From Chrysomallon squamiferum (Eukaryota; Animalia; Mollusca), in NCBI GenBank assembly GCA_012295275.1, contig CM022673.1, positions 9,672,001-9,736,000 on the forward strand: DNA of 64,000 nucleotides, written 5' to 3'. Of this stretch, positions 3,465 through 59,209 are shown piece by piece; position 1 is the first letter of the stretch; each line of letters starts with the position of its first letter. The translations under genes were made by a program, and so were the position numbers. The notes beneath the pieces are model-generated. The model did no database searches, had not been told where the DNA came from, and worked only from the letters and a program-made list of their open reading frames with translations.

Positions 3465-3657
3465 TTCCGAACATAAATTATCTGACCAATGTAAATTTAA
3501 TGTAAAATTCCTCATTGGATATTCCATTTGGACTGATTACAAAGCAGCAGATGTCAACTAATTAGCATGTTAGTGATTATAAAAGGACCACTTCTACGAC
3601 ATCAACTTCATCCTGTCTGCAGCCAGCAAGTATACCACATCTACTTGAACCAACAAG
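3465..3657 (+). promoter_or_regulatory. Core promoter and non-coding exon 1 of acidic gene copy 1
   Basis: TATAAAA at 3578-3584, Inr-like TCA about 30 nt downstream, donor AAG|GTAATT at 3657/3658. The block is near-identical in all five copies (TATA also at 9656, 14614, 21912, 28651). Confidence 0.7.
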
Positions 3658-4065
3658 GTAATTTACTATTTTATAATAATTTAATAATTTGATAATGATT
3701 GGAAACAAAACAATATTTTATTGTAAATTTAAATATTTAAATAACATTTCGACATTGTTGAAGCCAGTAATATTAAAATAATATAGTGAATAGAGATAAA
3801 CTAATAGAATGTAATATACAAAACTATTCAGAGTTTCGTGTATAAACCATCAATGAACTGCCGGTCTGGAGTATTTAAAATAAAAGTTGTGGAAGTATAC
3901 AGAATTTATTTAGTCTATTTACTCTTCAAAGAAATACAGCAAGAAAACCATGAATTCAAATAAACCTATAGTCCATCAAATAAAGGAAAAGAGAAATTAA
4001 TAATATTTAAAATAAATTATCGAAGACTAAAGAAACAAACATATATTTCATATTTCTATTTACAG

Positions 4066-5453
4066 ATGAGATTTTGTATTTTCCTTCTGTGTCTTTTGGC
4101 AACCACAGCATTCGCCTACAGAATAACAGTGGAAGATGGGGGTAGGTCCAGTAATTCTCTTTATTTCATAAATTATATTAGAACTAATTGAGTTAAGTTT
4201 TCGATTCTTGCCGATTTCTAATCAGTTTTCCTTAAAATATTTACGATATTTATCACCAGTCGTTTAAACTTAATCATAAGTTAATTTAACATAAGTTGTA
4301 AAGAAATAATTAATGTTAGACTAATGACAAGAAGTATTTACTTCAAATACAATTTTGTGGTAGCTGTATGGCTGAGCATATTTGCATTTATATCTTGGTT
4401 TTTCTAATGATATCAAATATTATATATATATATATTTGAAAATGTCTTTACAAGCCAATCCTGTCTTAGATAATGATAAATTTCATGTGACTGTTGTTTT
4501 TCTTCTAATACACTTTCATTGATTCGTCCCTATACTGTTGTTACAACTGAAATGATGTGTATCTTTAGAAGACGTTTCCGATGATGGTGAAGTAGAGGAA
4601 TTACTGGAAACACTTTTAGAAGATATGGATGATTCTGACGACGGTGACGACGACGGAGACGACGACGAAGAATTAATTGAAGACCTTCTTGAGGCTGCTT
4701 TGATTTTGGAAGAAGACGACGATGATGATGAAGATGATGATGATGATATGGGTGATGATATGGATGATGGTTCCATGGATGAGGAAACTTTGATAGGTGT
4801 TTTGGAAAATATCCTGGGTGATGATGATGATGATGATATGGATGATGGTTCTTTGGATGAGGATTCTTTGCTAGGTGCTTTGGAAGAGCTCTTGGGCGAT
4901 GATGACAATGACAACGACGATGATGAGGGTGATGATGATTTGAGTGAGATGTTGGGTGATGGAGATGATGATGATGACGATGACGATGAATCTCCTGAAG
5001 GCTTGCTCGACCTGTCAGACAACTTGCGACTGTTAGGTAACGTTCTGGCTCAGAGGAAAGAAACGGAGGCTGCGGAGACTCTGATAAAAGCAGCAGACAC
5101 CATTGACAAAATAATTAACGATGCTGTGCAAGAAATGACCGGGGGCATGGAAGAGGAAATAAACGAAGCCGATGCAGAAAATAAACAGGATATAGAAGAA
5201 CAAGCCAAAGAGGCAGTGGAAGAAATTGCTGAAGAAGAAAGTGAAGAATCCCAAATTGAAGAGGAATTGAAGAAAGAAGAAGAGTCGAACCCGGAAGAAG
5301 TTAAAAGAGGTATGAAGAAAAAGCGGTTTAAATAAAGTATTATAGGTTAAGCTAAAATCATTTATTGTAAGTAACAACATTTCGTAATTAATTAATTCAT
5401 TCATTCATACAGTGAAATACAATACACCAACAACATTCACCACTCGTAAAGCA

Positions 5454-5527
<74 letters not shown>

Positions 5528-6045
5528 ATAAAAAATATAAAATAAAAGAACTAAATCTCCACTAACTAAATAAATAAATAAAAGTATTCAATGAAAAACG
5601 ACAAAGCAAAACAAATAAAAAGAAAAATGAAACAAAATCTAATGTTATAAATGTAACCAATATCGCTTGTACTAGTTACATCATACAGCAATAGTAAAAT
5701 AAAAAAAACAAAAATTAGAAAAACCCACTGTATTGTAAATGTAACCAATATCGTTTGTACCACTAACAAATTAACTATCCATACTGATACTTCTGTAATT
5801 ATTATTATCAATAATAACTAGTAATACTAGAGCAGCGGATCATTTTCAAACAGTTTGTTTTTCTTTTTAAACAACAGTTACTTAAATGAAGAATATTGTA
5901 TCTGCAATAATTAATACTGCTATTCTTGGTAATACTGTTAGTGCTGCTGTTGTAGTTGTTATTATTATTGAATTATGTTTCAGATGCAGATCAGGGAACA
6001 ACATGTCGACCTCGACGACGTCGCAGTACCACACAAAGCCCATAG
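4066..6045 (+). CDS. Secreted Asp/Glu-rich protein, copy 1 (292 aa)
   Basis: Coding exons 4066-4141 (MRFCIFLLCLLATTAFA|YRITVEDG, signal peptide), 4569-5309 (acidic domain) and 5984-6045 (DADQGTTCRPRRRRSTTQSP*). GT-AG introns, both phase 1, frame continuous. AATAAA at 6112-6117. Confidence 0.88.
5454..5530. repeat. (AAT)n microsatellite followed by a poly-A run in intron 3 of copy 1
   Basis: Directly visible. Confidence 0.9.
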
Positions 6046-7346
6046 ATCACTTGAACACACTCATCTTGACTACTGCACGTTTTCAATGACTTGAAATTGA
6101 ATCTTATCTGGAATAAAAAAGTATATTTAAAACAAAAATCACATTTGTTTGTTTTTACTGTTTCAAGGTTATTATTTTCTTATATAGTACAACAGTAAAT
6201 AAATATAAAGAAATAATTACAGTGTATAAATAATCTTTCGTACAAGAAACTCGCCTTCACAAGACTGTCCAAGATTTAAATACGTCAAGAGAGAATAAGG
6301 AAGTGAAACGAAACAAGCAAAAATTTGATGATAGAGTTTATGTTGAATCATTCAGAAGATGATCAAGAAAGAAAGCTCATAAGATAATTCTCCATGGGTC
6401 ACTTGAAAAAATAACAATAAAAATCCAAATTTAATGAGTTGGCTATTAGTTTCCAAGATTTCCACAATCTGGCTTCAAAATTCAATGTCGTGTCACAGAA
6501 ACTATTTGAAGTATTGTATTAAAGATATTTTGAAGATTTAAATATGCTGAAATGAAGAATGCAAAAACAACAACAAAAAAACCCCAAAAGCAACAAAACA
6601 AACAATAAGAACAAAAAACCATCTAAATAAATAAGTAAATGAATAGAAAAAAAACGTCAAAGAATTCATTATAGATTTTGAATGAGAAATCATCAGAAAG
6701 TTTTAATGAGAATTTGAATTATTACATGGAATATTTATATCTTTAATTTTATTTTTGTGTGCACTAAAACATTTACTTGAACAAAAATAAAAAATACCCC
6801 AATTTCACCTAAGAGTACCCAGATTTAACTAGTAGTTAACAAGAAAGTTTCAGTATTTCAGTATTGTCATATGTTTATATATCTTACACGTCTTGTAGAG
6901 ACAGACAAAACATTTTTTAACATTTGGTTGTTGGCTGTTTGTTTCTGATGGGTCGCAGGCAAATGTGAAGAGTAAAGTTGTTGGTTTATAACATAATGTG
7001 AAACAAGTTTAATTATTTAAACTTGAAAACATTGCTGTCAACACTGCAGCGATTTGGAAACAAAAGTAAGACTAGCCAGGGAAAAATTACTGTTAGAATT
7101 GATTATTGTTGTATAACGTCATTAATTATTATTTTCTTAAACTAGTGTAAGGTATAAAATTTACTAAATATAATTATCATGTAACATGATAGAATATGTA
7201 TTACGTAAATTTTTTTATGATTTTATTTTTTATTTTTTGCTGACTAATTTCTGCTAATAAAGATTTATCAATCTTTTTCATTAGTGTATCTTTTTGTGTT
7301 GGATATTTATTTATTTATTATTATTATTATTGAAAGTAATAGCAGT

Positions 7347-7372
7347 GTAGTAGTAGTAGTAGTAATAGTAGC

Positions 7373-7428
<56 letters not shown>
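7347..7428. repeat. (GTA)n microsatellite
   Basis: Directly visible; it generates the spurious poly-V and poly-Y ORFs. Confidence 0.95.
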
Positions 7429-10158
7429 CAACAACCATAGAAGCAGTAGCAATAAAAATAATGTGGTATATTATCAATGGAAACAATTAAGTGTATGCGA
7501 CACACAGATAACAAGGTAGTCGTGCCTCTTTACTATTCCAGGGTACGCAATCCGCGATTGTCTGTTCTATGTATATTCTATTTTGCCGTCGATTTTTTAT
7601 TTTTTATCTTTTTTAAATTTTATTAATTTAGTTTTCCTTATTAAATTAAACCCACAACGGAATTAGTGACAACCGTTCTCAAAAACTCGCATTCAGTGCT
7701 CATCAACGCCAGCAGATTCAAATGTTTTTCTCCCATCGTCTTTCTTTGTGTATTGGTTATGCGGCGCAGTTTGGAAAACGAACGCTCAACAAAAAAATTG
7801 TTCTAAAACGTACCTCTACACAAAACATAAATACCAAGGGCTGTAGTCAAAATCATGATACCCAACAGATTGATTGAAAAATAAAAGAAGAAGAAAAAGG
7901 CGGATCGCGGGATCTCTGAAAGCATTTGCTGTATCTGCTACGTTTCATTTATGCCGAGAAAAAATAGTAATAAATAACAAAGAATAAAAAAAAAAATCCA
8001 ATAACTAAAATAAGCGCTTCGATCAGACACCAAAGTAGAATTTACTCGATGTGATCACACGCCAAAGTAGCACCAAAATATCTTATGACGCCATTGTAGT
8101 TCATAACTTTATAATATATTGAGAAAAGAAGGTCATAAAAAATTCAATATTACTAAGAGGTGTCACTCGCATTCAAGCTGCAAGCATCAAAACTCATTTA
8201 TCTGCAGCTCCGTCAAAGTGAGAATATTCATTTAACTAAATGAGAAACTGCAGACGAGAAGAAATTAAGTCTCCAACATTTACACAGACATTCTTAACAG
8301 AAATAAACGAATTCTTGTATGGTGTTAGATTATTTTTGCTAGTAATGAAATATGTCAAGGGCATCTGGTAAATATTAAATTCATAATTTTGTTCTAATAC
8401 AAGACGTGATCATTATTAGGAAAAATTCTCCTCCCAAGATTCACTGTGCTTTTCTTCGTAAAGTGCTCTGATAACTACGGGTAGGAACACATAAAATATT
8501 CTTTAATTGTTAGTGGAAGAAAAACACAGCAACTTTGCTTTTAACACTAAATGTAGGAAAAAGAACGAGCTTCACATAATAATACATAAAGTTAACAAAT
8601 TCAGATTCGTGATACTGTTAAACAAAATAAACTTAACTTTGTTTTGATTTTTGATTACATATATATTCTGAAAGCTGCACAAAATAATATATATGTCCTA
8701 AAATAAATATGTGTACAAATATCTAAATACTGTCTGAATTTCACTTAAAAACACTATACACTTTTTTCGAACCAAATACATTTCTGTTTATATGAAAAAT
8801 GAGTCGGAGAAGGAGTGGTATCTAGGGCAAATGGAGCCTACGACAAGCACTGAAATTGAGCCCCCGTCCAAACATTTGACACCCCTCTGTCAGATAAATA
8901 ACTATATGATAAAGTCAGCTCAGAAATATCAGTGAAGTTTAAAAGAAAGAAACTTTAGATAAGATACCTTCTAGAATTTATCATGATCAGAAAAATATAC
9001 TTGAATCCAATTAACTGAGTTATTATTCTCTTTCATAGCGACTTTAAAAATGATATTCTACTGACACTTTATGATTTTTCTCAGTGTTTTGAGTAACTAA
9101 TGGCTTATAGTTTGTTTAGAATTTCACATTTTCGAAACTGCGAGTATCAGCTGGTGTAGATTGATTTTGCTTTGGCTACACACATTAGGGCTATGGCTGC
9201 ACCACCCGTTATATACCCACTGAAGGTCAAATTAACAGAATATAACAGACAGACCTGTACAGCGTTTTGAGTTTGAACTACCAACGTACTGTAGGTGTGA
9301 AGGTTTTCAATTGCAAAATTTGAAGTATACAGAATGTATTTAGTCTGTTTATTCTTTCGCGAAAATTAAAGAATAATATGTTGTTGCCGGTGTGTATTCT
9401 GTACCTATTAGTTATGTAATGAATTACAACATTACTATTAGTATCTCATTAGCAAACCTGAAAACCACATGAGAAAAGAAAATTCATCATTCACAGCCTA
9501 CGAAACAAAACAATAATCTAATCCTAAGATCTGAAATGTGTGTTCCGAACATAAATTATCTGACCAATGTAAATTTAATGTAAAATTCCTCATTGGATAT
9601 TCCATTTGGACTGATTACAAAGAAGCAGATGTCAGCTAATTAGCATGTTAGTGATTATAAAAGGACCACTTCTACGACATCAACTTCATCCTGTCTGCAG
9701 CCAGCAAGTATACCACATCTACTTGAACCAACAAGATAATTTACTATTTTATAATAATTAAATAACTTGATAATGATTGGAAACAAAACAATATTTTATT
9801 GTAAATTTAAATATTTAAATAACATTTCGACATTGTTGAAGCCAGTAATATTAAAATAATATAGTGAATAGAGATAAATTAATAGAATGTAATATACAAA
9901 TTTATTCAGAGTTTCGTGTATAAACCATCAATGAACTCCAGCTGTGGAGATTTTAAAATAAAAATTGTGGAAGTAAACGGAATTTATTTAATCTATTTAT
10001 TCTTCAAACAAGAACAGCGAAAAAAACTATGAATTTAAATTGTGGTATACAGTAAATCTATATTCCATAAAAAAATAAAAATAAAAAAGAGAAGAAAAAA
10101 ACAATTTTCAAAGAACAAAGAAAAAAACAGATATTTATATTTATATTTCTATTTACAG

Positions 10159-11980
10159 ATGAGATTTTGTATTTTCCTTCTGTGTCTTTTGGCAACCACA
10201 GCTTTCGCCTACAGAATAACAGTCGAAGATGGGGGTAGGTCCAGAAATTCTCTTTATTTCATAAATTATAGTAAAACAAATTGAGCTAAGTTTTAGATTG
10301 TTGCCGATTTCAATTCAGTTTTTCTTTAAATATTTACGATATTTATCACCAATGGTTTAAACTTAATCATGAGTTGTAAAGAAATAATGAATGTTAGCCT
10401 AATGATAAGAAGTATTTATATCTTATTTGCTAGTAATAAGAAATATTATATATGTATATATTTCAAAATGTCTTTACAAGCCATCCTGTCTTACACTATG
10501 ATACATTTCGTGTGACTATTGTTTTATTTCTAATACATTTTCATTGATTCGTTCCTATACTGTTGTTACAACTGAAATGATGTGTATCTTTAGAAGACGT
10601 TTCCGATGATGGTGAAGTAGAGGAATTACTGGAAACACTTTTAGAAGATATGGATGATTCTGACGACGGTGACGACGACGGAGACGACGACGAAGAATTA
10701 ATTGAAGGCCTTCTTGAGGCTGCTTTGATTTTGGAAGAAGACGACGATGATGACGAAGATGATGATGATATGGATGATGATATGGATGATGGTTCCATGG
10801 ATGAGGAAACTTTGCTAGGTTTTTTGGAAAATATCTTGGGTGATGATGATGATGATGATATAGATGATGGTTCTATGGATGAGGATTCTTTGCTAGGTGC
10901 TTTGGAAGAGCTCTTGGGCGATGATGACAATGACAACGACGATGATGAGGGTGATGATGATTTGAGTGAGATGTTGGGTGATGGAGATGATGATGATGAC
11001 GATGACGATGAATCTCCTGAAGGCTTGCTCGACCTGTCAGACAACTTGCGACTGTTAGGTAACGTTCTGGCTCAGAGGAAAGAAACGGAGGCTGCGGAGA
11101 CTCTGATAAAAGCAGCAGACACTATTGACAAAATAATTAGCGATGCTGTGCAAGAAATGACCGGGGGCATGGAAGAGGAAATAAACGAAGCCGATGCAGA
11201 AAATAAACAGGATATAGAAGAACAAGCCAAAGAGGCAGTGGAAGAAATTGCTGAAGAAGAAAGTGAAGAATCACAAATTGAAGAGGAATTGAAGAAAGAA
11301 GAAGAGTCGAACCCAGAAGAAGCTAAAAGAGGTATGAAGAAAAAGCGGTTTAAATAAAGTATTATGGGTTAAGCTAAAATCATTTATTGTAAGTAACAGC
11401 ATTTTGTAATTAATTAAGTTAAGTAATGAAACCTGAAATACAATATAGCAACAACATTCACAACTCGTAAAGCCAAAAGATATTAACAGAAAAGTATGTA
11501 ACTAACTAAGGAAATAAATAAATAAATAAATGAAAGATATCAATGGAAAATAGCCAGGAAAACAAAGAAAATTGTAATAAAACCAAAGCAAATGTTATGA
11601 ATGTAACCAATATCATTTACATCAACTAAGAAAAAAAAAAAAATAAAAAAAAAATAAAAAGATAAAAATAAAATGAAACTAAAAACAAAACAAAAACAAT
11701 TATATATTATAAGTGTATCCAGTATCCTTAAATAAAGAAATTAGATAAAGAATATTATATCTGTGATAATAATAATAATAATAATAGCAACACGAAGAAG
11801 AACGAAACATTCATGATTTTGTTATGCGTTTTCTTGTTTCTGTTGTTACTACTGCTGTTGTTGTATATACTGTTATTGTTTCTGTTGTAGTTGTTATTAT
11901 TATTACATTTTGTTTCAGGTGCACATGAGGGATCAACACATCGTCCTCGACGACGTCGCAGTACCACACAAAGCCCATAG
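10159..11980 (+). CDS. Secreted Asp/Glu-rich protein, copy 2 (291 aa)
   Basis: Exons 10159-10234, 10594-11331 and 11919-11980 (GAHEGSTHRPRRRRSTTQSP*). TATA 9656-9662, AATAAA 12055-12060. The 5'UTR intron donor reads AT instead of GT at 9736-9737. Confidence 0.85.
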
Positions 11981-12235
11981 ATCACTTGGACACACTCACC
12001 TTGACCACTGACCACTGGACTTTTCAATGATGCTTGAAATTTAATCTTATCTGGAATAAAATGTATATTTAAAGAAAAATCACTTTTGTTTGTTTTTAAT
12101 ATTTCGCTGTCGTGTCTGTCTCAAGAGGATTATTTTCTTATGTAGTGCAACATACAGTGAATAAATTTAAAGAAATAATTACATTGTATCAATAACGTTT
12201 CGTATGAGAAACTCGATTTCACAAATAGTACTACA

Positions 12236-12850: not shown

Positions 12851-14842
12851 ACTACAGGTAAAAGGAAAATTTGTTTCATTCATATTGTGAAAAAAGAAAG
12901 AAAAAAGAGAAAACCAAGAAAAAACTAAATAATACTTAAAATAAGCGCTTCGATCACACACCAAAGCAGAATTTACTCGGTGTAGATTACACGCAAAAGT
13001 AGTACCAAAATAACTTATGATGCCGTTGTAGTTCATAACTTTATAATATATTCAGAAACGAACGTCATACAAAATTTTCACATCACTAACAGATGTCACT
13101 CAGATTCAGACTGAAAGTATGAAAATTCACAAAGCGAAAATATTCATTTAATAACTTCATCATAAATTATTGCAGACGAACAGAAATTAAGTCTCACAGA
13201 CATTCTTAACAGAATTAAACGAATTCTTGTATAGGGTTGGATTTTTTTCTAGTAATGATAGATGTCAAGAACATCTGGTAAATATTAAATTTATAATTTT
13301 CTTCTAAATACAAGGCGAGATTATTGCTAGGAACAACTCTCCTCACAAGACTCAGTTTGCTATTCTTCGCTTCTGTCCGTTGCAAACGACTCGTTTAGCA
13401 AAGTGCTGTGATAACTACGGGTAGGAAGTCATAAAACATTCGTTAATTTGCTAGTGGAAGAAAAACAGAACAATTTTGGTATTAAGACTAATTAGAGGAA
13501 GAAGAATGAGCTTCACATAATAATACATAAAGTTAACGAATTCAGATTCGTGGTGCTGTTAAACAAAATAAATTTAACCTTTCAGTTACGTGCGAATCAA
13601 AGTCACGTACCCAAACGCCCCTTTTTGATTATTAATTACAAATATATTCTGAAAGTTAAACAAAATGACACATATCTGCTTAAATAAATATGTGTACTAA
13701 ATACTGTCTGAATTTCACTTAAAAACAAAATGAATTTTTTTTTAACCAAATACATTTCTGTTCATATGACAAATTAGCCGTAGACTGAGACATATCTACG
13801 TGAAATGGCTCCTATGAGAAGCACTGAAATTGAGCTCCTGTACAAACATTTGACAGCCATTTGTCAGATAACTAACTATATTATAAAGTCAGCTCAAAAA
13901 TATCAGTGAAGTATAAAAGAAAGTAACCTAAGATAAGATTCCTTCTTGAACTTATCATCAACATGAACAGTATACAGGAATCCAATTAATAGACTTATTA
14001 TTCTCTTTGATGGCGACTTTAAAAATGCTATGTTACTGACACTGTGTGATTTTGCTCAGTGTTTGAAGAAACTAATGGCTTACAGTTTGTTCAACCAAAA
14101 TTCTGAATTTCACATTTTCGTGACTACGAGTATCTGTTGGTGAAGATTAATTTACTTTGTCTCCACACATTAGGGCTAAGGCTGCACCACTCGTTGTAGT
14201 TCCTGCGTTTGAAGGTCAAATTAACAGAATTTAATATACACATTTATACAGAGTTTTGTGTTTGAATTTACAGTATATGTAAGGTTTTTAAATACAAAAT
14301 TTAGAAGTATACAGAATGTAGTTAGCAACAATGCTAAGTTCTTTTCTGTGTGTGTTGTTTATCTATTAGTTTTGAAATGAATAATAAAATTACTATTAGT
14401 ATTTCATTAGTAAACTTGAACACCACACGAGAAAGCAAAATTCATCATACACAGAGTACGAAACAAAACAATAATCTAATCGTAAGATCTGTAAGGTGTA
14501 TTCCGAACATAAATTATCTGACCAATGTAAATTTAATGTAAAATTCCTCATTGGATATTCCATTTGGACTGATTACAAAGAAGCAGATGTCAGCTAATTA
14601 GCATGTTACTGATTATAAAAGGACCACTTCAACGACATCAACGTCATCCTGTCTGCTGCCAGCAAGTGTACCACATCTACGTGAACGAACAAGGTAATTT
14701 ACTATTTTATAATAATTAAATAACTTGATAATGATTGGAAACAAATTAATATTTTAAATTCCAATATTTAAATGACATTTCGACATTGTTCAAGCCAGTA
14801 ATAAATATAGTGAGTAGAGAGGAAGTAACAGAATGTAATAAA

Positions 14843-15084
14843 CAAATTTATTCAGAGTTTCGTGTATAAACCATCAATGAACTTATGCTATGTAACTTTT
14901 AAAAATGAAATTGTGATTTTATACAGAATCTATTTAGCCTATTTATTTTTCAAACAAGAACAGCAAATTTATTCAGAGTTTCGTGTATAAACCATCAATG
15001 AACTCCAGCTGTGGAGATTTTAAAAAAGAAATTGTGGAATTATACAGAATCAATTTAGCCTATTTATTCTTCAAACACGAACAG
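14843..15084 (+). repeat. 121-bp tandem duplication in intron 1 of copy 3
   Basis: CAAATTTATTCAGAGTTTCGTGTATAAACCATCAATGAACT starts at both 14843 and 14964; the other four paralogs have a single copy. Confidence 0.9.
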
Positions 15085-15213
15085 CAAGAAAACTGTGAAT
15101 TCAAATGTGGTATACAATAAATCTATATTCCATAAGAAAAAAATAATGTAATATTTAAAGTTAAATTATCGCAGAACAAAGAAACAAACACATATTTCTA
15201 TTTCTATTTACAG

Positions 15214-17092: not shown

Positions 17093-17263
17093 ATCACTTG
17101 GACACACTCACCTTGACCACTGACCACTGGACTTTTCAATGATGCTTGAAATTTAATCTTATCTGGAATAAAATGTATATTTAAAGAAAAATCACTTTTG
17201 TTTGTTTTTAATATTTCGCTGTCGTGTCTGTCTCAAGAGGATTATTTTCTTATGTAGTGCAAC

Positions 17264-20200: not shown

Positions 20201-20837
20201 AAAAGAGAAAACCAGGAAAAAACTAAATAATACTTAAAATAAGCGCTTCGATCACACACCAAAGCAGAATTTACTCGGTGTAGATTACACGCAAAAGTAG
20301 TACCAAAATAACTTATGATGCCGTTGTAGTTCATAACTTTATAATATATTCAGAAACGAACGTCATACAAAATTTTCACATCACTAACAGATGTCACTCA
20401 GATTCAGACTGAAAGTATGAAAATTCACAAAGCGAAAATATTCATTTAATAACTTCATCATAAATTATTGCAGACGAACAGAAATTAAGTCTCACAGACA
20501 TTCTTAACAGAATTAAACGAATTCTTGTATAGGGTTAGATTTTTTTCTAGTAATGATAGATGTCAAGAACATCTGGTAAATATTAAATTTATAATTTTCT
20601 TCTAAATACAAGGCGAGATTATTGCTAGGAACAACTCTCCTCACAAGACTCACTTTGCTATTCTTCGCTTCTGTCCGTTGCAAACGACTCGTTTAGCAAA
20701 GTGCTGTGATAACTACGGGTAGGAAGTCATAAAACATTCGTTAATTTGCTAGTGGAAGAAAAACAGAACAATTTTGGTATTAAGACTAATTAGAGGAAGA
20801 AGAATGAGCTTCACATAATAATACATAAAGTTAACGA
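17264..20837 (+). repeat. Tandem duplication of about 1.39 kb of intergenic spacer (17264-19450 and 19451-20837)
   Basis: At 19450/19451 the sequence jumps from ...AAGTTAACGA back to ATACAGTGAATAAATTT, which matches 17264. The first unit additionally carries the 801-bp MITE. Confidence 0.9.
18326..19126. mobile_element. Non-autonomous Tc1/mariner-superfamily element (pogo/Tc2/Tigger-like MITE), 801 bp
   Basis: Perfect 17-bp TIR CCGTATATACTTGTGTA, extending to 22/25. TA duplication at 18324-18325 and 19127-19128. The empty site AGAAT-TA-AACGAA is present in the paralogous spacers near 13211 and 20509. No transposase ORF. Confidence 0.92.
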
Positions 20838-22385: not shown

Positions 22386-24168
22386 ATGAGATTTTGTATT
22401 TTCCTTCTGTGTCTTTTGGCAACCACAGCTTTCGCCTACAGAATAACAGTGGAAGATGGGGGTAGGTCTAGAAATTCTCTCTATTTCATAAATTATATTA
22501 AAACTAATTGAGATAAGTTTTAGATTCTTGCCGATTTCAAATACGATATTTATCACGAATGGTTTAAATTTAATGTAACATAAGTTGTAAAGAAATAATG
22601 AATGTTAGCCTAATGATAAGAAGTATTTACTTCAAATACAATTTTGTGGTGGCTGTACGGCTGAGCATATTTACATTTATGTCTTGGTTTTTCTAATGAT
22701 ATCAAATATTATTTATGTATATATTTGAAAATGTCTTTAGAAGCCATCCTGTTTTAGATTATGATAAATTTCATGTGAGTGTTGTTTTTCTTCTAATACA
22801 CTTTCATTGATTCGTTCCTATGCTGATGTTACAACTGAAATGATGTGTATCTTTAGAAAACATTTCCGATGATGGTGAAGTAGAGGAATTACTGGAAACA
22901 CTTTTAGAAGATATGGATGATTCTGACGACGGTGACGACGACGGAGACGACGACGAGGAATTAATTGAAGACCTTCTTGAGGCTGCTCTGATTTTGGAAG
23001 AAGACGACGATGATGACGAAGATGATGACGAAGATATGGATGATGATATGGATGATGGTTCCATTGATGAGGATACTTTGCTCGGTGTTTTGGAAAATAT
23101 CTTGGGTGATGATGATGATGATGATATAGATGATGGTTCTTTGGATGAGGATTCTTTGCTAGGTGCTTTGGAAGAGGTCTTGGGCGATGATGACAATGAC
23201 AACGATGATGATGATGGTGATGATGATTTGAGTGGGATGTTGGGTGATGGAGATGATGATGATGACGATGACGATGAATCTCCTGAAGGCTTGCTCGACC
23301 TGTCAGACAACTTGCGACTGTTAGGTAACGTTCTGGCTCAGAGGAAAGAAACGGAGGCTGCGGATGCTCTGATAAAAGCAGCAGACACCATTGACAAACT
23401 AATTAGCGATGCTGTGCAAGAAATGACCGGGGGCATGGAAGAGGAAATAAACGAAGCCGATGCAGAAAATAAACAGGATATAGAAGAACAAGCCAAAGAG
23501 GCAGTGGAAGAAATTGCTGAAGAAGAAAGTGAAGAATCACAAATTGAAGAGGAATTGAAGAAAGAAGAAGAGTCGAACCCGGAAGAAGCTAAAAGAGGTA
23601 TGAAGAAACAGCGGTTTAAATAAAGTAATAGGGGTTAAGCTAAAATCATTTATTGTAAGTGACGACATTTTGTAATTAATTAATTAAATAAAAAAAACTG
23701 AAATACAGTACACCAAAAACATACACCACTCGTAAAGCGAAAAAATAAAAATAAAATAAGATGATAAAATTAACTAAGTAACTAAGTAAATAAATGAATA
23801 AAAGAAATCAGCGAAAAAGAGAAAGCGAAAGAAATGAAAGAAAAATAAAATAAAAACAAATGTTATGAAAGTAACCAGTATCACTTGAACTACTGCAACA
23901 TCAGTTACATCATTCAGCACAAGTAAAAAAAAAACAAGAACAAAAATAGAAACAAAAACCAAACAAAAAAAAAACTTATAATGTAACCAATACCTTTTGT
24001 ACCACCACTAACACATTAACTATCCATACTGATACTTCTGTAATTATTTCCATCAACAATAACTAGTAGTACTACAGCAGTGCATCATTTCTGGAACAAT
24101 TTTTCTTTTTTTAAACAACAAGAAATTAAATAAAGAATATTATATCTGTAGTAGTAATAATAATAGTA

Positions 24169-24219
<51 letters not shown>

Positions 24220-24413
24220 GCAAGACGAAGAAGAACGAAACATTCATGATTTTGTTATGATTTTTCTTGTTTCTGTTGTTGCTATTGCTATGCTTGCTAA
24301 TACTGTTAGTGCTGCTGTTGTAGTTGTTATTATTGTTATATTCTCTTCCAGATGCACATCAGGGAACAACATGTCGTCCTCGACGACGTCGCAGTACCAC
24401 ACAAAGCCCATAG
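22386..24413 (+). CDS. Secreted Asp/Glu-rich protein, copy 4 (292 aa)
   Basis: Exons 22386-22461, 22857-23597 and 24352-24413 (DAHQGTTCRPRRRRSTTQSP*). TATA 21912-21918, UTR donor GT at 21992, AATAAA 24480-24485. Confidence 0.88.
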
Positions 24414-26171
24414 ATCACTTGAACACACTCATCTTGACTACTGTACTTTTTAGTGAGCATTGAAATGTAATCTTATCTGAATAAAAAGTATATTTAAAAA
24501 AAACATCACAACTGTTTGTTTTTAATATTTCACTGCCGCGTTTGTTTCAATAAGGTTAGTTTCATATGTAGTTCAAGAGCCGATAAATATATAAAAATAA
24601 TTACATTGTATAAATAATCTTTCGTACAAGAAACTCGATTTCCCAAGATTGTCCAAGGTTTAAATACCTCAAGAGAGAATAAGCGAAAGAGAGAAAAGTT
24701 TGATGAGCAGTGTTTTTGTTGAATGATTCAAATGATGATACAAGAAAGGAAACTCATAAGATAATTGCCCATGGGTCAGTTAAAAAACACCAATAAAAGT
24801 CCGAATTTAATGAGTTGGCTATTAGTTTCCAAGATTTCCACAATCTGGCTTCAAAATTCAACGTCGTGTCACAGAAACTGTTTGAATTATTGATTAAAGA
24901 TATTTTGATGATTTAAATATGGAGAAATGAAGAATGGAAAAAAACCAAGAAAAATAACACAAAATACAAAGAAACACCCCAAAAACAAGAAAAACCAAAC
25001 AAAACAACATCTAAATAAATAGGTAAATGAAATATAAAGATATGAGAATTTTGAATCAAAGAGATGTCAAAGAATTCATTGGAGATTATTAACGAGAAAT
25101 CATCAGAAAGTTTTAATGACAATTTGAATTATTACATGGAATATTTATATCTTTAATCTTTATTTCTGTGTGCACTAAAACTATTTTACTTGAACAAAAA
25201 TCAGAAATACCCCAATTTCACCTCAGAGTACCCAGATTGAGCTAGCAGTTAGTAAGGAAGTTTCAATATTTCAGTATTGTCATATGTTTGTATTTCTTAC
25301 GGGCCTTGTAGAGACACATAAAATATTTTTTAACATTTGGTTTGTGGCTGTTTGTTTCATACAAATGTGAAGAGTAAAGTTGTTGCTTTATAACATAATG
25401 TGAAACAAGTTTAATTATTTGAACTTGAAAACATTGGAATCAACACTGCAGTGATTAGGAACTAAAAGTAATACTAGCCAGGGACATATGAATGTTAGAA
25501 TTGATTATAATTATTTTTTAAACTAGCGCGAAGTATATAATTTACTAAATATTAATATCATGTAACGTTATAGAATAGCTAATAAGTACTTTCTCTGAAT
25601 ATATATATATATATATATATTTTGTTTTCGGTGACTAATTTATGCCAATAAAGATTTGTCAGTCTTTTTTATTGGAGTATCGTTTTGTTTTCGATATTTA
25701 TTTATTAATTATTAGGAGCATTAGCAATGTAGTAGTAGTAGTAGTAATAGCAGTAGCTACAGGAAAGGCTATAGTAATAGTAGCAGTAAAAATAATGTCG
25801 TGATATATTATCATTAAATATATTCGAAATGTATTCCCAGAGAAAACAAGGTCGTCCTGCCTCTTCACTGTTCCAGGGGACGCAAGTCGCGATGGTCTAT
25901 TCTATGAAAATTCTGTTTTGCCATCGATGATTTAATTTTTTTTTTTAAATGAATTAATTTAATTTTACTTATTAAATTAAACCCACAAAGATAGTGCTGC
26001 CCAATTTCTAAAATCTTGATCTGTTCCTGCATCTCAATCCATTGTTTAATATAGTTTAATCTACTAACCTAGATTTTCGTTTTATTTTTTGTATTTGTAA
26101 AGGAATTATTTTACTGCAGTTTTCGTTTCTTTTGAGCTTCGTATTTTTAATGGCAGACCGCGACTGGTACT

Positions 26172-26817: not shown

Positions 26818-29129
26818 ACTACAGCTAAAAGGAAAATTTGTTTCATTTATGCCGTGAAAAATAATAATTAAAAGGCAAGAATAAACAAAATAATAATTAA
26901 GAATAGAGGGTAAATCACACACAAAAGTACACAGGTGTAGATCACTAGATTGAGTAGGTGACACGCCAAAGTAGCGCCAAAATATCTTATGACGCCGTTG
27001 AAGTTCATAATTTTATAATATATTCAGAAATAAACGTCATAAATCATTTAAATGTTACTAATAGATGTCACTCGCATTCAAGGTGCAAGTATCAAAATTC
27101 ATTTATCTGCAGCTCCGTCAAAGCGAGAACATTCATTTCATAACTTAATGATAAAATAGGGCACACGAGCAGAAATTAAGTCTCGAACATTTACACAGAT
27201 ATTCTTAACACAACTAAATAAACTCTGGTATGGTGTTATATTTTTTTTATTTTTTTCTTGAAGTGAAAAATGTCAACGAAATCTGGTAAATATTAAATAT
27301 ATAACTTTTTCTAAATACAATACGTGATAATTCCTAGGATCAGTTCTGCTCAGAAAACTCACCGTACTATTCTTCGCTTCTGTCCATTTCCAACGACTCG
27401 TTTATCAGAGACATAGGCAAGGTGTTCTGCTAACTTTGGATAGAAACACATAAAACAGTTTTTAATTGATAGTGGAAGGAAAACAGAGCAACTTTGTTAT
27501 GAAGTCTAATTGTAGGAAAAAGAATGAGATTCATATAAAAATACATAATGTTAACCAATCCAGAGTCGTGGTGTTGTTAAACAAATTAAATTTGTTACTG
27601 TGAATCAAACTCACTTACTCAAACGCCACCTTGCTTTTGATTTTAATTACATATGTATTCTGAAAGATGAAGAAAATGACACATATCTGCTTAAACAAAC
27701 ATCTAAATACTGTGTTTGAATTTCATTAAAAACACTGTGCACTTTTTTCGAATCAAATACATTTCTGCTCATATGACGAATTAGTCGCAGACGAAGAAAT
27801 ATCTATGGAAAATGGCTCCTACAGCAAGCACTGAAATTGAGCTCCTGTCCAAACATTTGACACCCATTAGCAGATAATTATATGATAAAGTCAGCTCAGA
27901 AATATCAGTGAAGATTAATATACAGCAACCTAAGATAATATTCCTTCTAGAATTTATCATCATCAAAGATATATACTTGTATCCAATTAACAGAGTTATT
28001 ATTCTCTTGGATGCTGACTTTAAAAATCATATTTTACTGACACTGTATGATTTTGCTCAGTCTTTGAAGAAACTAATGGCTTATTGTTTGTTCAACCAAA
28101 CTTTAGAATTTCACATTTTCGTGACTACGAGTATGTGTTGGAAAAGATTAATTTGCTTTGGCTCCAAACATTGGGACTAAATGCACCACCCGTTGTAGTT
28201 CCTGCGTTTGCAGATCAAATTAATAGAATGTAATATAAACACATATACAGAGCTTTGTGTTTAAACTGTCAATGTACTGAAGGCTTTCAAACAGAAAATT
28301 TTGAAGTATACAGAATATATTAATTCTGTTTGTTCATCTAACGAAAATAGAAAAAATACTATGTTTTTAGTGTGTGTTGTTATCTTTTAGTTTATCTGTT
28401 ATTTCTGAAATTAATAATAACAATATTATTAGTATTTCATTAGCAAGCTTAAACACCGCATGAGAAAAGAGAATTTTATCATACACAGACTAGGAAACAA
28501 AACAATAATCTAATCCTAAGATCTGAAACATAAATTATTCCGAACATAAATTATCTGACCAGTGTAAATTTAATGTAAAATTCCTCATTGGATATTCCAT
28601 TTGGACTGATTACAAAGAAGCAGATGTCAGCTAATTAGCATGTTACTGATTATAAAAGGACCAATTCAACGACATCAACTTCATCCTGTCTGCAGCCAGC
28701 AAGTGTACCACATCTACGTGAACGAACAAGGTAATTTACTATTTTATAATAATTAAATAACTTGATAATGATTGGAAACAAATCAATATTTTAAATTCAG
28801 ATATTTAAAGGACATTTCGACATTGTTGAAGCCAGTAATAAATATAGTGAGTAGAGACGAATTAATAGAATGTAATATACAAATTTACTCAGAGTTTCGT
28901 GTATAAACCATCAATGAACTGCTGCTGTGGAACTTTTAAAAATGAAATTGTGGAATTGTACAGAATCTACTTAGCCTATTTATTCTTCAAACAAGAACAG
29001 CAAGGAAATTGTGAATTCAAATGTGGTATACAATAAATCTATATTCCATGAGAAAAAAATAATGTAATATTTAAAGTTAAATTATCGAAGAACAAAGAAA
29101 CAAACACATATTTATATTTATATTTACAG

Positions 29130-30940
29130 ATGAGATTTTGTATTTTCCTTCTGTGTCTTTTGGCAACCACAACTTTCGCCTACAGAATAACAGTGGAAGA
29201 TGGGGGTAGGTCCAGAAATTCTCTTTATTTCATAAATTATACTAAAATTAATTGAGCTAAGTTTTAGATTCTTGCCTATTTCAAATACGTTTTTCCTAAA
29301 ATATTTACGATATTTATCACGAATGGTTTAAACTTAATGTAACATAAGTTGTAAAGAAATAATTAATGTTAGCCTAATGATAAGAAGTAACTATTTCAAA
29401 TACAGTTTTCTGGTGGGTGTACTGCTGAGGATTTTTGCATTTATATCTTATTTTGTAGTAATAAGAAATATTATATACGTATATATTTGAAAATGTCTTT
29501 AGAAGCCGTCCTGTGTTAGATTATGATAAATTGCATGTGAGTGTTGTTTTTCTTCCACTACACTTTAATTGATTCGTCCCTATACTATTGTTACAACTGA
29601 AATGATGTGTATTTTTAGAAGACGTTTCCGGTGATGGTGAAGTAGAGGAATTACTGGAAACACTTTTAGAAGATATGGATGATTCTGACGACGGTGACGA
29701 CGACGGTGACGACGACGAAGAATTAATTGAAGACCTTCTTGAGGCTGCTCTGATTTTGGAAGAAGACGACGATGATGATGAAGATGATGATGATATGGAT
29801 GATGATATGGATGATGGTTCCATGGATGAGGACACTTTACTAGGTGTTTTGGAAAATATCCTGGGTGATGATGATGATGATGATGATGATATAGATGATG
29901 GTTCTTTGGATGAGGATTCTTTGCTAGGTTCTTTGGAAGAGCTCTTGGGCGATGATGACAATGACAACGATGATGATGATGGTGATGATGATTTGAGTGG
30001 GTTGTTGGGTGATGGAGATGATGATGACGACGATGACGATGAATCTCCTGAAGGCTTGCTCGACCTGTCAGACAACTTGCGACTGTTAGGTAACGTTCTG
30101 GCTCAGAGGAAAGAAACGGAGGCTGCGGAGACTCTGATAAAAGCAGCAGACACCATTGACAAAATAATTAGCGATGCTGTGCAAGAAATGACCGGGGGCA
30201 TGGAAGAGGAAATAAACGAAGCCGATGCAGAAAATAAACAGGATATAGAAGAACAAGCCAAAGAGGCAGTGGAAGAAATTGCTGAAGAAGAAAGTGAAGA
30301 ATCACAAATTGAAGAGGAATTGAAGAAAGAAGAAGAGTCGAACCCGGAAGAAGCTAAAAGAGGTATGAATAAATAGCTGTTTAAATAAAGTAATATGGGT
30401 TAAGCTAAAACCATTTAATGTAAGTAACAACATTTCGTAATCAATTAATTAAATAATAAATACAGTGAAATACAGTACACCAACAACATACACCATTCGT
30501 AAAGCGAAAAAATATAAATAAAATAATATGATAAAATTAACTAAGTAACTAAGTAAATAAATGAATAAAAGAAATCAGCGAAAAAGAGAAAGCGAAAGAA
30601 ATGAAAGAAAAATAAAATAAAAACAAATGTTATAAAAGTAACCAATATCACTTGTACTACTGCAACATCAGTTACATCATTCAGCACAAGGAAAAAAAAA
30701 ACAAGAACAAAAATACAAAAAAAACAAAAACAAAAAAAACCTATATTGTAAATGTAACCAATATCTTTTGTACCACCACTAACCCATTAACTATCCATAC
30801 TGCTACTTCTGTAATTATTTCCATCAATAATAACTAGTAGTACTAGAGCAGTGCATCATTTCTGGAACAATTTTTCTTTTTTTTAAACAACAAGAAATTA
30901 AATAAAGAATATTATATCTGTAGTAGTAATAATAATAATA

Positions 30941-30991
<51 letters not shown>

Positions 30992-31185
30992 GCAAGACGA
31001 AGAAGAACGAAACATTCATGATTTTGTTATGCTTTTTCTTGTTTCTGTTGTTGCTATTGCTATGCTTGCTAATACTGTTAGTGCTGTTGTTGTAGTTGTT
31101 ATTATTATTGTATTATGTTTCAGATGCAGATCAGGGAACAACATGTCGTCCTCGACGACGTCGCAGTACCACACAAAGCCCATAG
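29130..31185 (+). CDS. Secreted Asp/Glu-rich protein, copy 5 (293 aa)
   Basis: Exons 29130-29205, 29619-30362 and 31124-31185 (DADQGTTCRPRRRRSTTQSP*). TATA 28651-28657, UTR donor GT at 28731, AATAAA 31252-31257. Confidence 0.88.
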
Positions 31186-34090
31186 ATCACTTGAACACAC
31201 TCATCTTGACGACTGTACTTTTTAGTGAGCATTGAAATGTAATCTTATCTGAATAAAAAGTATATTTAAAACAAACATCACAATTGTTTGTTTTTAATAT
31301 TTCACTGTCGTGTCTGCTTCAGAAACATTATTTTAATATATATAGTGCAACAGTGAATAAATATATAGAAATAATTACATTGTATAAATAACTCGATTAA
31401 TCGTAGAAGAAACTCGATTTCACAAATAGTACCACCACCACTATTGCCACTACAGCCTGTAGCAAAACATAGCATAGGCTACTACTGGCTAGTTACAAAA
31501 GTAAACACCGCCCTCAACCCATGCCCCCCGTCAACCCACGCCCACTATTAACATAACTGTACATAGAACATAAACACACCTTAATGTTCGAAGAATAAAT
31601 CAGATGTATTGTCGAAACAAAAGGAATCGTGCGAACAGTATTAAAAACCAGCACAAATGCCATTAAACTATAATGTAACTGCATGTATGCCCCGAAAACG
31701 TGGGTCAAAGTTTAGGCCAGTAGACAAGTGAGATTCAGGCCACGGATAACTTTTTATATGAGCAAAGTCTTTTATAATGGAAGTAGTGTCAACCGTTCTC
31801 AGCGTATTTAAACGTTTTTCTCCCATCGTCGTTCTTTGTGCATTGGTTATGCTCAACAACAACATTGTTCTACACAAAACAAATACCAAAGGCTACAGTC
31901 AAAATTGCGAAGCCCCGCATTTTGATGAAAAAAAAAAAAAAAAAAAAAAAAAGTCACCCTCGGGGTTTCTGAAAGCGCGGGGCCTGTAAGAATTTACAAC
32001 ATCTGCTGCGTCGTTAATCCTTCGCTGCTGCTACTTCTGCATTACAGTTTGCACTGACATATCTGTTTGTCTCGCAATTCATTAAAAAAAATTAAATCTG
32101 ACGTAAACAATTTTGAGGCAGATTCGTCCTTCCACTTCTGCCAAGTCTTGCAATCTTGAGCCACCCAGTTATTCTAATGAGATAATTTCTACTGCATTAA
32201 CTTGTAATTATTTGAGGACTCAATTTATGTTCCCGGTTTAGGCAAGCCAGTAACTTGCAAGTCTTGTTTATAATATTAACTTTGACATTATCTTTACTGT
32301 TAACTCTTCTTTCCTGATGAAATATCAGTGAATGATAAAGGTGATTTATTGGCAAAGTGTTTGGAACGTTCATATTTTATTACCAGCCAGTGCACGGCAA
32401 AGATTTTTTAATTTTAATTTTAATTTTTTTTTCCTCCTAGTGCTGTTGCGTTAATATGAATGTTATTTTAGTTCTTTCTTATGATATATTAAGAACATAT
32501 TTATCAGGCAGCGAAGTTAATTCTTTGTTTCGTTATTTTGTCAAAATGATGAAGTCCCTTCCTGTATCTCTCTATTTCTCTCTTTCTTAAGGTTTTTAAC
32601 ATTTGTGGACATTTTAAGTCTTTTGTTTTATTAAGCTTTTTTTGTCTTATCTTTCTTTTTGTTTGTCTGTCCTTGAGTCTCGAAAAAACGAAAAGGAAGA
32701 AAAAAAAGAAAAAAAAAAAGAAAGACGAAAACTAATATTCCAAATATCTGGAATTTAATTTTTTTTTTTCCTTTTGTTTTTGTGCCCTGACATTAACTGT
32801 ATCCAGTAAATGTGTTAAAGTACCAGTTAAATGTTTCCATATTGAATAACTAGAGCACTTTTTCCCCCCTCTTCTTATCGTCTGCTTCGGTTCTTTCTGA
32901 TTCATCATTCATGCTCGTGTGAAGTCCCGCCAGATTGTTTCCCGCGCATGCCAACATTAATCACGGGTTTTTAAGATTGTTTTTTTCTCATACGCAGAAA
33001 CATCTCACCTAAATAGAAATGTAATGAAGAAATGTTTCGTTTTTATAATAATAATAATAATAATAGTAATAATAATAATTATAATTATAATACAGATGGA
33101 TTTATGACTGAATTGAGGTTGACAGGCAGACAACAAACAGATATACAGACAGACCTAACAGAGAGAAAGAGAGATAAAAATGAAAATAACATATAAATGT
33201 AATAAATCTACTACAAATTTGTCTATTCATAATAAACAACTGTCCGTCATTTCATCACACTTTTGTTGTTATTATGGGTCCTACTACCACCATCACCATT
33301 ACAACAACCACTACTGCAACATTACTTACCTCATCTTCTACATTGCTATTACTGAGCTACAACTCGTTTTAAAGGGAATATTTTTCTTCTTTGTTTTTAT
33401 TTTATTTTATTTTATTTATTTATTAATTTTTTTTTAATTTTTTATTTCTTTTTATATTTTATTATTATTTTTTTTGTGATACATTATCTAAATTTGATAG
33501 ATCTATTGAAATCAAACATTTTGTTCGTGTGATTCTTACAGTCGAATAATCACAGAATATAAATAAATAAATAAATAAATATATGTATATAATAATAAAT
33601 TTAAAAAAATAAATCAAACTCATATGTCTTATCCTAGAGAAACGATGCGGAACAAGCGAAACAAAAACGTAATTTATTTATTTACTTCGGTGGTCTCTGA
33701 TACAACCACATACCACAAACATCAAGTTCTCGGCAGTTCCAGTTTAAGTAAGTCTCATTCACAGAAATCGTCCTCTGTTTAGCGTGCGGACGAATATGTG
33801 CCGGCTTCCTGCCTGCCTTATCTTTGGACGACGTCTGCTGTCTAAACATTTTCATCTTTGTCCGAAACTCCTAATGAGGTGGAACTTCGGAAATGTCCGT
33901 ATCTCTTGTGCACATGTTTGTAAATATATTGCAGTGACCTAACTTGGACCGCACCCTGGAAACACGCGGTGCATCCCTTTTGGCGCGCGCGCGTTCTCTC
34001 CGTCTCGCTTAGCGTTTGCAGCGGTATTAAAGCTGTCGTCTGCAGACTGGATTTTACTTACTGAAACTAATTTCAAAATAAATACTAAAT

Positions 34091-55697: not shown

Positions 55698-55731
<34 letters not shown>

Positions 55732-57707: not shown

Positions 57708-57765
<58 letters not shown>

Positions 57766-59173: not shown

Positions 59174-59209
<36 letters not shown>

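What the first reader, a model, noticed from the sequence alone, without database searches (positions are those of the whole stretch)
3578..31257. Five-gene tandem array of an unrecognised secreted, hyper-acidic modular protein
Seen: five genes with identical 4-exon architecture and intact reading frames. Each has a signal peptide with an A-x-A type cleavage site, about 120 Asp+Glu in 292 aa (hand count, copy 1), a ~150-residue stretch with no Lys or Arg, a Glu-rich helical region and a basic tail on its own exon. Exon-3 lengths (741, 738, 741, 741, 744) differ only by whole codons. Known: secreted Asp-rich proteins such as molluscan Aspein and Asprich, coral CARPs and vertebrate SIBLINGs control CaCO3 or Ca-phosphate mineralisation, and granins are acidic Ca-binding granule proteins. 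I do not recognise this sequence as any of them. Inference: a lineage-specific, dosage-amplified Ca-binding matrix protein family (shell, eggcase, statolith or secretory granule).
Basis: partly seen in the sequence, partly recalled or inferred. Interest (0 to 1): 0.85.

Follow-up and report, generated by a model that had tools for sequence, protein, structure and literature searches.

The report
Vent-snail hyper-acidic secreted protein array
Five tandem genes, likely from a deep-sea vent snail, encode an undescribed, extremely acidic protein that is predicted to be secreted; its acid stretch is about 4.5 times longer than in the one relative found, and it likely gathers calcium for building shell mineral.

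Summary
The array is real. Five co-oriented genes encode 291-293 aa proteins (92-96% identical, 118-120 Asp+Glu) under purifying selection. Two corrections: copy 2 lacks its first splice donor, and copy 3 is a mosaic of copies 4 and 2. The neighbouring kinesin places the host near Gigantopelta aegis (vent snails, Peltospiridae); the species is not pinned. One homologue was found: an uncharacterised 143-aa G. aegis protein with three RefSeq accessions, apparently on the kinesin's chromosome. It shares the signal peptide, the mature N-terminus and a helix-plus-long-helix domain, but its acidic spacer is 31 aa against 141 here. Here the spacer alternates poly-Asp runs with short Leu-rich blocks. 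By sequence it is not Aspein, a SIBLING or a granin. Best reading (50%): a family-restricted mineral-matrix protein that condenses with Ca2+. Expression, splicing, tissue and ion binding are all untested; gland or granule scaffold and metal buffer remain live rivals.

The parts
3578..6117 (+). Copy 1: TATA-like box 3578; non-coding exon 1 ends 3657; exon 2 4066-4141 (signal peptide and mature N-terminus); exon 3 4569-5309 (acidic block domain and helical domain); exon 4 coding 5984-6045 (basic tail); AATAAA 6112. 292 aa.
9656..12060 (+). Copy 2: exon 2 10159-10234, exon 3 10594-11331, exon 4 coding 11919-11980. 291 aa, frame open.
9736..9737 (+). Copy 2 intron-1 donor position reads AT instead of GT; splicing of the 5' non-coding exon is likely impaired or shifted.
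   Evidence: consequence inferred
14614..17172 (+). Copy 3: exon 2 15214-15289, exon 3 15705-16445, exon 4 coding 17031-17092. 292 aa. Mosaic: 5' flank 96-100% identical to copy 4's, 3' part 97-100% identical to copy 2's, middle distinct from both.
14843..15087 (.). 121-bp tandem duplication inside copy 3 intron 1, where likeness to copy 4 starts to fall; likely a crossover scar.
   Evidence: interpretation inferred
21912..24485 (+). Copy 4: exon 2 22386-22461, exon 3 22857-23597, exon 4 coding 24352-24413. 292 aa.
28651..31257 (+). Copy 5: exon 2 29130-29205, exon 3 29619-30362, exon 4 coding 31124-31185. 293 aa.
4741..4896 (+). 78-bp (26-codon) internal duplication in the acidic domain, 82% identical; found in all five copies. 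Trace of growth of the acidic tract by module duplication.
4985..5308 (+). Conserved helical domain (copy 1 residues about 165-272): a 19-residue helix, a turn and a 75-residue helix; 31% identical over 75 residues to the G. aegis homologue.
5310..5336 (+). Possible alternative end if intron 3 is not spliced: short Lys-rich tail, stop at 5333-5335 overlapping an AATAAA.
   Evidence: untested

Best explanation
The array encodes a protein, predicted to be secreted, that likely acts as a calcium-gathering matrix component of calcified tissue (most likely shell) in a peltospirid vent snail. Shown: the gene anatomy, the composition, purifying selection, one homologue with a short acidic spacer. Predicted: a cleaved 17-residue signal; a disordered 141-residue tract in which poly-Asp runs alternate with four or five short Leu-rich blocks; then a helix, a turn and a long amphipathic helix. 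Inferred mechanism: the long helix oligomerises or docks on the organic matrix; the Asp runs bind Ca2+, which screens a net charge near -100; the Leu-rich blocks then act as stickers, so the chains collapse into Ca-rich condensates that hold amorphous calcium carbonate and steer its crystallisation. The Arg-rich tail would anchor the protein to polyanions or be trimmed by a convertase. Capacity was likely raised twice: by internal duplication of the acidic module and by unequal crossing-over to five genes.
For: Composition: 59 Asp + 22 Glu, 33 Leu/Ile/Val/Met/Phe and no Lys/Arg in residues 26-166; net K+R-D-E of -100 to -102. Selection: pN/pS 0.47 overall, 0.20 helical, 0.12 signal region; 39 non-synonymous of 59 distinct changes against an 80% expectation, p about 0.008; helical 5 of 11, p about 0.012 (rough because copies are not independent). 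Changes in the acidic tract are mostly Asp/Glu/Gly or hydrophobic swaps. Host: kinesin neighbour matches G. aegis best, summed 1181 bits against 784 for the next of 16 proteins tested. Homologue P0123 was found with a query that lacked exon 2, yet matches exon 2 at 17 of 24 residues. Both AlphaFold models give the same helix-turn-long-helix layout after a low-confidence acidic spacer. Analogy: Asp-rich Aspein collapses and condenses with Ca2+ in simulations (bioRxiv 10.64898/2026.06.03.729799, passages); coral AGARP forms liquid protein-calcium condensates (bioRxiv 10.1101/2024.06.04.597398, abstract). Peltospirid shells use many family- or species-specific proteins: 19 of 49 uncharacterised shell/sclerite proteins were family-specific (PMC11871041, sections 8 and 11).
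Against: No transcript, tissue or protein evidence. The genes could not be linked to any entry of the published peltospirid shell or sclerite proteomes, whose supplements list ids without sequences. The G. aegis form is only 29% Asp+Glu with a charge-balanced helix (25 acidic, 14 basic in 89 aa), so the ancestral job may not depend on a poly-Asp tract. Amphipathicity is significant for only 3 of 8 blocks tested (p <= 0.04: one acidic-domain block and two in the helical domain), and the four short helices lie in regions with pLDDT under 50. Likeness to Aspein rests on Asp content alone, which is weak ground (as noted for a limpet protein in PMC3374290, passages). Dibasic sites and an acidic-plus-helix layout fit a granule protein equally well.
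Confidence: 0.5

Rival explanations
1. Granin-like scaffold or bulk product of a gland (mucus, egg capsule, reproductive or other secretory granules): the protein condenses at low pH and high Ca2+ in the late Golgi, packs cargo, and is processed at its basic sites.
For: Signal peptide, extreme acidity, long helix, Lys-Arg at 271-272 and an Arg-Pro-Arg-Arg-Arg-Arg site. Chromogranins form liquid scaffolds in the trans-Golgi (PMC9526250, search listing only). High gene dosage suits a bulk gland product (inference).
Against: No granin family hit in Pfam at E <= 1. The basic sites sit only at the C-terminus and are missing from the G. aegis homologue. The family is restricted to two snails.
Confidence: 0.2
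2. Soluble extracellular ion sink: a blood or tissue-fluid polyanion that buffers or sequesters Ca2+ and vent metals such as Fe2+, or seeds detoxifying mineral granules.
For: About 100 net carboxylates per chain; host relatives live at metal-rich vents (PMC7895826, passages).
Against: No His or Cys clusters (0-2 His, 0-1 mature Cys in most copies), so no selectivity for soft metals; G. aegis shares the habitat yet has the short form.
Confidence: 0.12
3. Lipid-surface or yolk protein: the long amphipathic helix coats lipid particles or membranes, as apolipoproteins do, and the acidic tract carries calcium for embryos.
For: Residues 191-216 have a high hydrophobic moment (0.53 against 0.17 in shuffles, 0 of 5000 reached it). 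Read by eye, 14 positions spaced 4-3-4 (an 11-residue period) are hydrophobic in 12 of 14 here and 11 of 14 in G. aegis; that period is typical of lipid-binding helices and of some coiled coils (recalled).
Against: No sequence or fold match to an apolipoprotein; the same pattern fits self-association; the by-eye period has no statistical test.
Confidence: 0.09
4. Precursor of a short cationic peptide: conserved signal, acidic spacer, Lys-Arg site, then a 20-residue Arg-rich peptide on its own exon, as in antimicrobial peptide precursors (architecture recalled).
For: The tail follows Lys-Arg, lies on exon 4 and carries 6 non-synonymous against 1 synonymous change.
Against: 6 to 1 is close to the neutral expectation for 43.7 N and 16.3 S sites. 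The tail is absent from G. aegis, where the helix is what is conserved. A 255-residue spacer for a 20-residue product is disproportionate.
Confidence: 0.04
5. Part of the array is an assembly artefact or decaying: copy 3 could be a false duplication and copy 2 a young pseudogene.
For: Copy 3's flanks are 96-100% identical to those of copies 4 and 2, which is within allelic range; copy 2's first donor is broken.
Against: Copy 3's middle (about 14800-15970) is only 86-97% identical to any other copy and carries private amino-acid changes. All five frames are open. In the DNA run that holds the locus, a copy-1-specific contig has depth 48 while shared pieces reach 160-292; this is weak, uncalibrated support and the run may be the window's own source.
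Confidence: 0.05

Closest known systems
Gigantopelta aegis uncharacterised protein (XP_041366316, XP_041367339, XP_041367381; LOC121381992, LOC121381193), P0123
   Same: True homologue: 17 of 24 identical over signal and mature N-terminus, 31% over 75 residues of the helical domain, same predicted layout, more than one locus, and on a contig of the same length (84,917,595) as the matching kinesin.
   Different: 143 aa against 292; acidic spacer 31 against 141 aa, without Leu-rich blocks; helix charge-balanced; no Arg-rich tail. It has no described function.
Aspein / Asprich (bivalve prismatic-layer Asp-rich proteins)
   Same: Signal peptide followed by a long disordered Asp-rich tract; the likely working model for Ca2+ capture.
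   Different: Aspein is 60.4% Asp, 1.5% Glu, 13.2% Ser, 16% Gly, built of SG(D)n blocks to its C-terminus. Here the tract is 42% Asp, 16% Glu, 4% Ser and 23% large hydrophobics, followed by a 100-residue helical domain. No homology detected.
Coral acid-rich proteins (CARPs, AGARP)
   Same: Secreted Asp/Glu-rich disordered polyanions; AGARP forms protein-calcium condensates (abstract).
   Different: Coral proteins; none was hit. Convergent at most.
Accripin11 (Pinna nobilis prism protein)
   Same: Clade-restricted shell protein joining predicted helices to a disordered Asp-rich part (PMC9808598, abstract).
   Different: 103 aa, only moderately acidic, with a cysteine pattern and the acidic part at the C-terminus; this protein has no conserved mature cysteines and its acidic tract comes first.
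Granins (chromogranin A/B)
   Same: Signal peptide, acidic, helical segments, basic cleavage sites (features recalled).
   Different: No Pfam match; basic sites only at the C-terminus; no conserved N-terminal cysteine pair; two-species distribution.

Membership tests
Aspein / Asprich | Signal peptide plus long Asp-rich disordered region | tested here: met
   Hydrophobic N-terminus read from sequence (no signal predictor run); 59 Asp in 141 residues, pLDDT under 50.
Aspein / Asprich | Poly-Asp domain of SG(D)n blocks, about 60% Asp, very little Glu, running to the C-terminus | tested here: not met
   Aspein figures; here 42% Asp, 16% Glu, 6 Ser, 33 large hydrophobics in the tract and a helical C-domain.
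Aspein / Asprich | Sequence homology outside low-complexity parts | tested here: not met
   Searches returned only the G. aegis protein as a real hit.
Aspein / Asprich | Presence in shell mineral; effect on CaCO3 crystallisation | not testable with these tools
   Published peltospirid proteomes give ids without sequences.
Coral CARPs / AGARP | Secreted, strongly Asp/Glu-rich, disordered | tested here: met
   40-41% Asp+Glu overall; low-confidence acidic region.
Coral CARPs / AGARP | Coral origin and homology to a CARP | tested here: not met
   Host is a gastropod by neighbour homology; no coral hit.
Granins | Granin family profile match | tested here: not met
   No granin family among Pfam hits at E <= 1 for exon 3 or P0123.
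Granins | Multiple paired basic sites through the chain | tested here: inconclusive
   Arg-Lys 188, Lys-Lys 260, Lys-Arg 271 and an Arg run at 283-286; none in residues 20-178. Feature recalled.
Granins | Localisation to dense-core granules; Ca/pH-driven aggregation | not testable with these tools
   Needs tissue and biochemistry.
SIBLINGs (DMP1, DSPP, OPN, BSP, MEPE) | RGD motif, many Ser-x-Glu phosphorylation sites, phase-0 introns, vertebrate origin (features recalled) | tested here: not met
   No RGD in any copy and both coding introns are phase 1; two Ser-x-Glu sites; gastropod host.
Any solved fold (helical domain) | Structural match standing above generic helical hairpins | tested here: inconclusive
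   Foldseek: 0 of 98 matches at E <= 0.001. VIA-align: best Z 8.2, rmsd 1.6, 55 aligned, with unrelated rows tied within 1 Z.
G. aegis LOC121381193/LOC121381992 family (unnamed) | Homology in two separate regions plus shared chromosomal neighbour | tested here: met

The most novel reading that the evidence does not exclude
The host is the scaly-foot snail, and this is a moderately acidic peltospirid secreted helix protein that became a block-copolymer polyanion in that lineage alone. It would capture Fe2+ or Ca2+ in the shell or scales and give a protein handle on iron-sulfide armour, now thought to form by abiotic iron diffusion (PMC9156901, passages). The short G. aegis form would be a natural control.
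Probability: 0.1. Interest if true: 0.85.

Novelty: new variant of a known kind. Interest (0 to 1): 0.5.

Why it matters
Highly acidic shell proteins are well studied in bivalves and corals but are lineage-specific and hard to trace, because likeness rests on Asp runs alone. Here a traceable pair exists: the same signal, N-terminus and helical core carry a 31-residue spacer in one vent snail and a 141-residue block tract in another. That makes the origin of a hyper-acidic mineral-type protein directly testable, long form against short form. The alternation of poly-Asp runs with Leu-rich blocks, tied to a long helix, differs from Aspein and suggests a self-assembling polyanion of interest for mineral-templating materials. 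Without tissue data the function stays a reasoned guess, and acidic lineage-specific secreted genes in tandem are not rare in molluscs.

Tried and rejected
No whole genome is held for the window. No RNA holder was listed; three RNA runs added under the same organism label gave only short low-complexity pieces on copy 1, which says nothing about expression. A depth calibration on single-copy neighbours and an RNA positive control were not obtained, so copy number from depth stays uncalibrated. Word-index search with residues 140-246 of exon 3: 0 of 373 candidates at E <= 0.01, lengths 135-431 only. Profile search: 1 of 1488 candidates, P0123 itself, lengths 13-251 only; longer fused forms were covered only by the full-library search. 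Three of the 4 hits are long repeat proteins matching 28-44 residues and were dropped as chance. Pfam: only sub-threshold hits. PDB sequences: septin and seryl-tRNA synthetase coiled coils at E 0.006 and 0.06, generic. Fold searches: generic helical hairpins. Metagenome contigs: 592 pattern matches, none confirmed. The protein atlas and the complex predictor were not available, so oligomerisation has no model. Linking to published gene models failed: six peptides, the RefSeq ids, neighbour gene names and length guesses were not found in the supplements of PMC11871041 or PMC7142155. Two tandem 'LEA related' mantle shell proteins were considered and rejected, since their alignments run past residue 560. 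Unread supplements that may bear on this: PMC11871041 file 4 (scans), its MOESM2 (too large) and the cut end of file 3; PMC7142155 MOESM12 (too large). GC content does not settle the species: the window is near 30% against 34.5% and 37.5% published for C. squamiferum and G. aegis. The 11-residue period of the long helix has no computed test. Two earlier scan notes returned by sequence were bacterial Asp-rich proteins sharing 5-6 of 180 words and were unrelated; none by place.
Full report
1. The observation. Self-comparison of the window shows five related units of 5-7 kb between about 1.7 and 31.9 kb. Gene models built from coordinates give, for all five, a TATA-like box, a non-coding first exon, a 76-nt exon 2, an exon 3 of 741, 738, 741, 741 and 744 nt, a 62-nt coding exon 4 and an AATAAA. 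Both coding introns are phase 1 with GT..AG ends. The products are 292, 291, 292, 292 and 293 aa, 92-96% identical, with 118-120 Asp+Glu, net K+R-D-E of -100 to -102 and a Lys/Arg-free stretch of 158-160 residues. Three corrections: copy 2's first donor reads AT; copy 5's signal ends T-F-A; and the exon-4 tail competes with a read-through end that stops on an AATAAA in copies 1-4. No transcript data were obtained.

2. Is it functional? Exons 2 and 3 are 96-100% identical between copies, introns 1-2 85-96%. Exon 4 is 89-98% against 75-83% for intron 3 in 8 of 10 pairs, which supports exon 4 as real. pN/pS is 0.47 overall, 0.12 in the signal region, 0.47 in the acidic tract, 0.20 in the helical domain and 3.4 in the tail. 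Distinct changes give p about 0.008 overall, 0.012 for the helical domain and 0.06 for the acidic tract. These tests are rough, as the copies share history and may convert each other. The tail's 6 to 1 count is compatible with neutrality.

3. History of the array. Copy 3's upstream 1.8 kb is 96-100% identical to copy 4's, and its intron 3, exon 4 and downstream are 97-100% identical to copy 2's. A 121-bp duplication sits in its intron 1. This is the pattern expected from unequal crossing-over between copies 4 and 2 (inference). A false duplication could mimic the flanks, but the middle of copy 3 is distinct from all other copies and has private changes. In the one DNA run that holds the locus, a copy-1-specific contig has depth 48 and shared pieces 160-292; that is uncalibrated and may be the window's own source.

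4. The host. Downstream lie a kinesin, an ITFG2 gene on the minus strand and a Got1-family gene (Pfam). One kinesin exon matched Gigantopelta aegis at 86% and Haliotis at 79-83%. Over the whole gene G. aegis scores 1181 summed bits, about 70% identity, against 784 for the next best of 16 proteins tested out of 120 listed. The host is therefore likely a neomphalid gastropod other than G. aegis. The scaly-foot snail is the obvious candidate, but other peltospirid genomes exist (PMC13768707, listing only) and nothing here pins the species.

5. Relatives. A word-index search found none. The full HMMER scan of 1.84 billion representatives with the last 108 residues of exon 3 gave 4 hits, of which 3 are unrelated repeat proteins. 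The fourth, P0123 (E 3.5e-4), is a 143-aa uncharacterised G. aegis protein with three RefSeq accessions and at least two locus ids, on a contig of the same length as the kinesin's. Its N-terminus matches exon 2 at 17 of 24 residues although exon 2 was not in the query, which confirms homology independently. The seven residues after the predicted cleavage site are identical. A profile of both species found nothing else within 13-251 residues. The two genera that may be involved split 66-116 million years ago by two estimates (PMC7736800 and PMC7895826, passages).

6. Anatomy. Residues 1-17 read as a signal peptide. Residues 26-166 hold 59 Asp, 22 Glu, 33 large hydrophobics and no Lys/Arg: five Asp runs alternate with short Leu-rich blocks, which AlphaFold draws as four helices at pLDDT under 50. 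A 78-bp duplication, 82% identical, lies inside this tract. The G. aegis spacer is 31 residues, so the tract differs about 4.5-fold; the internal duplication favours growth in this lineage, but there is no outgroup. Residues 169-187 and 191-265 form a helix, a turn and a 75-residue helix at pLDDT mostly 70-92, and G. aegis gives the same layout. Residues 191-216 are strongly amphipathic. Read by eye, positions spaced 4-3-4 are hydrophobic in 12 of 14 here and 11 of 14 in G. aegis, an 11-residue period. The helical domain is more acidic here (35 acidic, 11 basic in 106) than in G. aegis (25 and 14 in 89). The 20-residue tail follows Lys-Arg, holds an Arg run and is absent in G. aegis. No family, solved sequence or specific fold matches.

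7. How it likely works. I commit at 50% to a mineral-matrix role. Secretion is predicted from the signal. Ca2+ binding is inferred from carboxylate density and from Aspein and AGARP, which collapse or condense with Ca2+ (bioRxiv 10.64898/2026.06.03.729799, passages; bioRxiv 10.1101/2024.06.04.597398, abstract). Self-assembly through the long helix and the Leu-rich blocks is inferred and has no model. The shell link is circumstantial: a shelled host, and peltospirid shells are rich in family-restricted proteins (PMC11871041, sections 7, 8 and the first part of 11). Against: only 3 of 8 blocks tested are significantly amphipathic, the homologue manages with a short spacer, and no tissue data exist. 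Rivals: gland or granule scaffold 20%, extracellular ion sink 12%, lipid-surface or yolk protein 9%, cationic-peptide precursor 4%, partial artefact or decay 5%.

8. Comparison with known systems. It likely works like Aspein, Asprich or CARPs but fails their membership tests on composition, architecture and homology. It fails the SIBLING features and has no granin profile match. Its only family is the unnamed one shared with G. aegis.

9. Novelty. A search for the five G. aegis ids found 0 papers. Nine topic searches listed no paper describing this family, judged from listings and the passages read. The library lacks most subscription papers, and the genes may sit unnamed among the uncharacterised ids of PMC11871041 or PMC7142155 (passages and supplement searches). 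Verdict: a real, selected, undescribed family; a new architectural variant of a known functional kind; interest 0.5.

Noticed in passing
window 34091-34966 (+), exons 34091-34148 and 34560-34966: A two-exon gene 3 kb after the array appears to encode a 154-aa secreted, strongly basic protein: hydrophobic N-terminus, then about 39 Lys+Arg against 14 Asp+Glu in 134 residues by hand count. No Pfam hit above threshold. It could be a polycationic partner of the acidic proteins; homologues were not searched.
   Followed up: partly
window 3139-3284 and 3798-3945, and matching places in the other copies: An element of about 145 bp occurs twice per gene unit, once upstream of the promoter and once in intron 1, at 71-75% identity; a shared regulatory element or an old small transposon.
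   Followed up: no
window 17264-20843: The spacer between copies 3 and 4 holds recent partial duplications at 97-98% identity (17264-18325 with 19451-20515; 19127-19456 with 13216-13545 and 20514-20843), a sign of continuing rearrangement or a local assembly problem.
   Followed up: partly
window about 39008-50521 (+): Carboxy-terminal (kinesin-14 type) kinesin gene; best match G. aegis.
   Followed up: yes
window about 53200-59400 (-) and 60891-62796 (+): An ITFG2 gene and a Got1/GOLT1-family gene lie head to head.
   Followed up: partly
window 58-1068 (-): A 336-codon open frame that looks like a hAT-type transposase remnant (recalled likeness; no Pfam hit), just upstream of the array.
   Followed up: partly
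P0123: The G. aegis homologue is one identical 143-aa sequence under three RefSeq accessions and at least two locus ids, so that species also carries very recent copies.
   Followed up: partly
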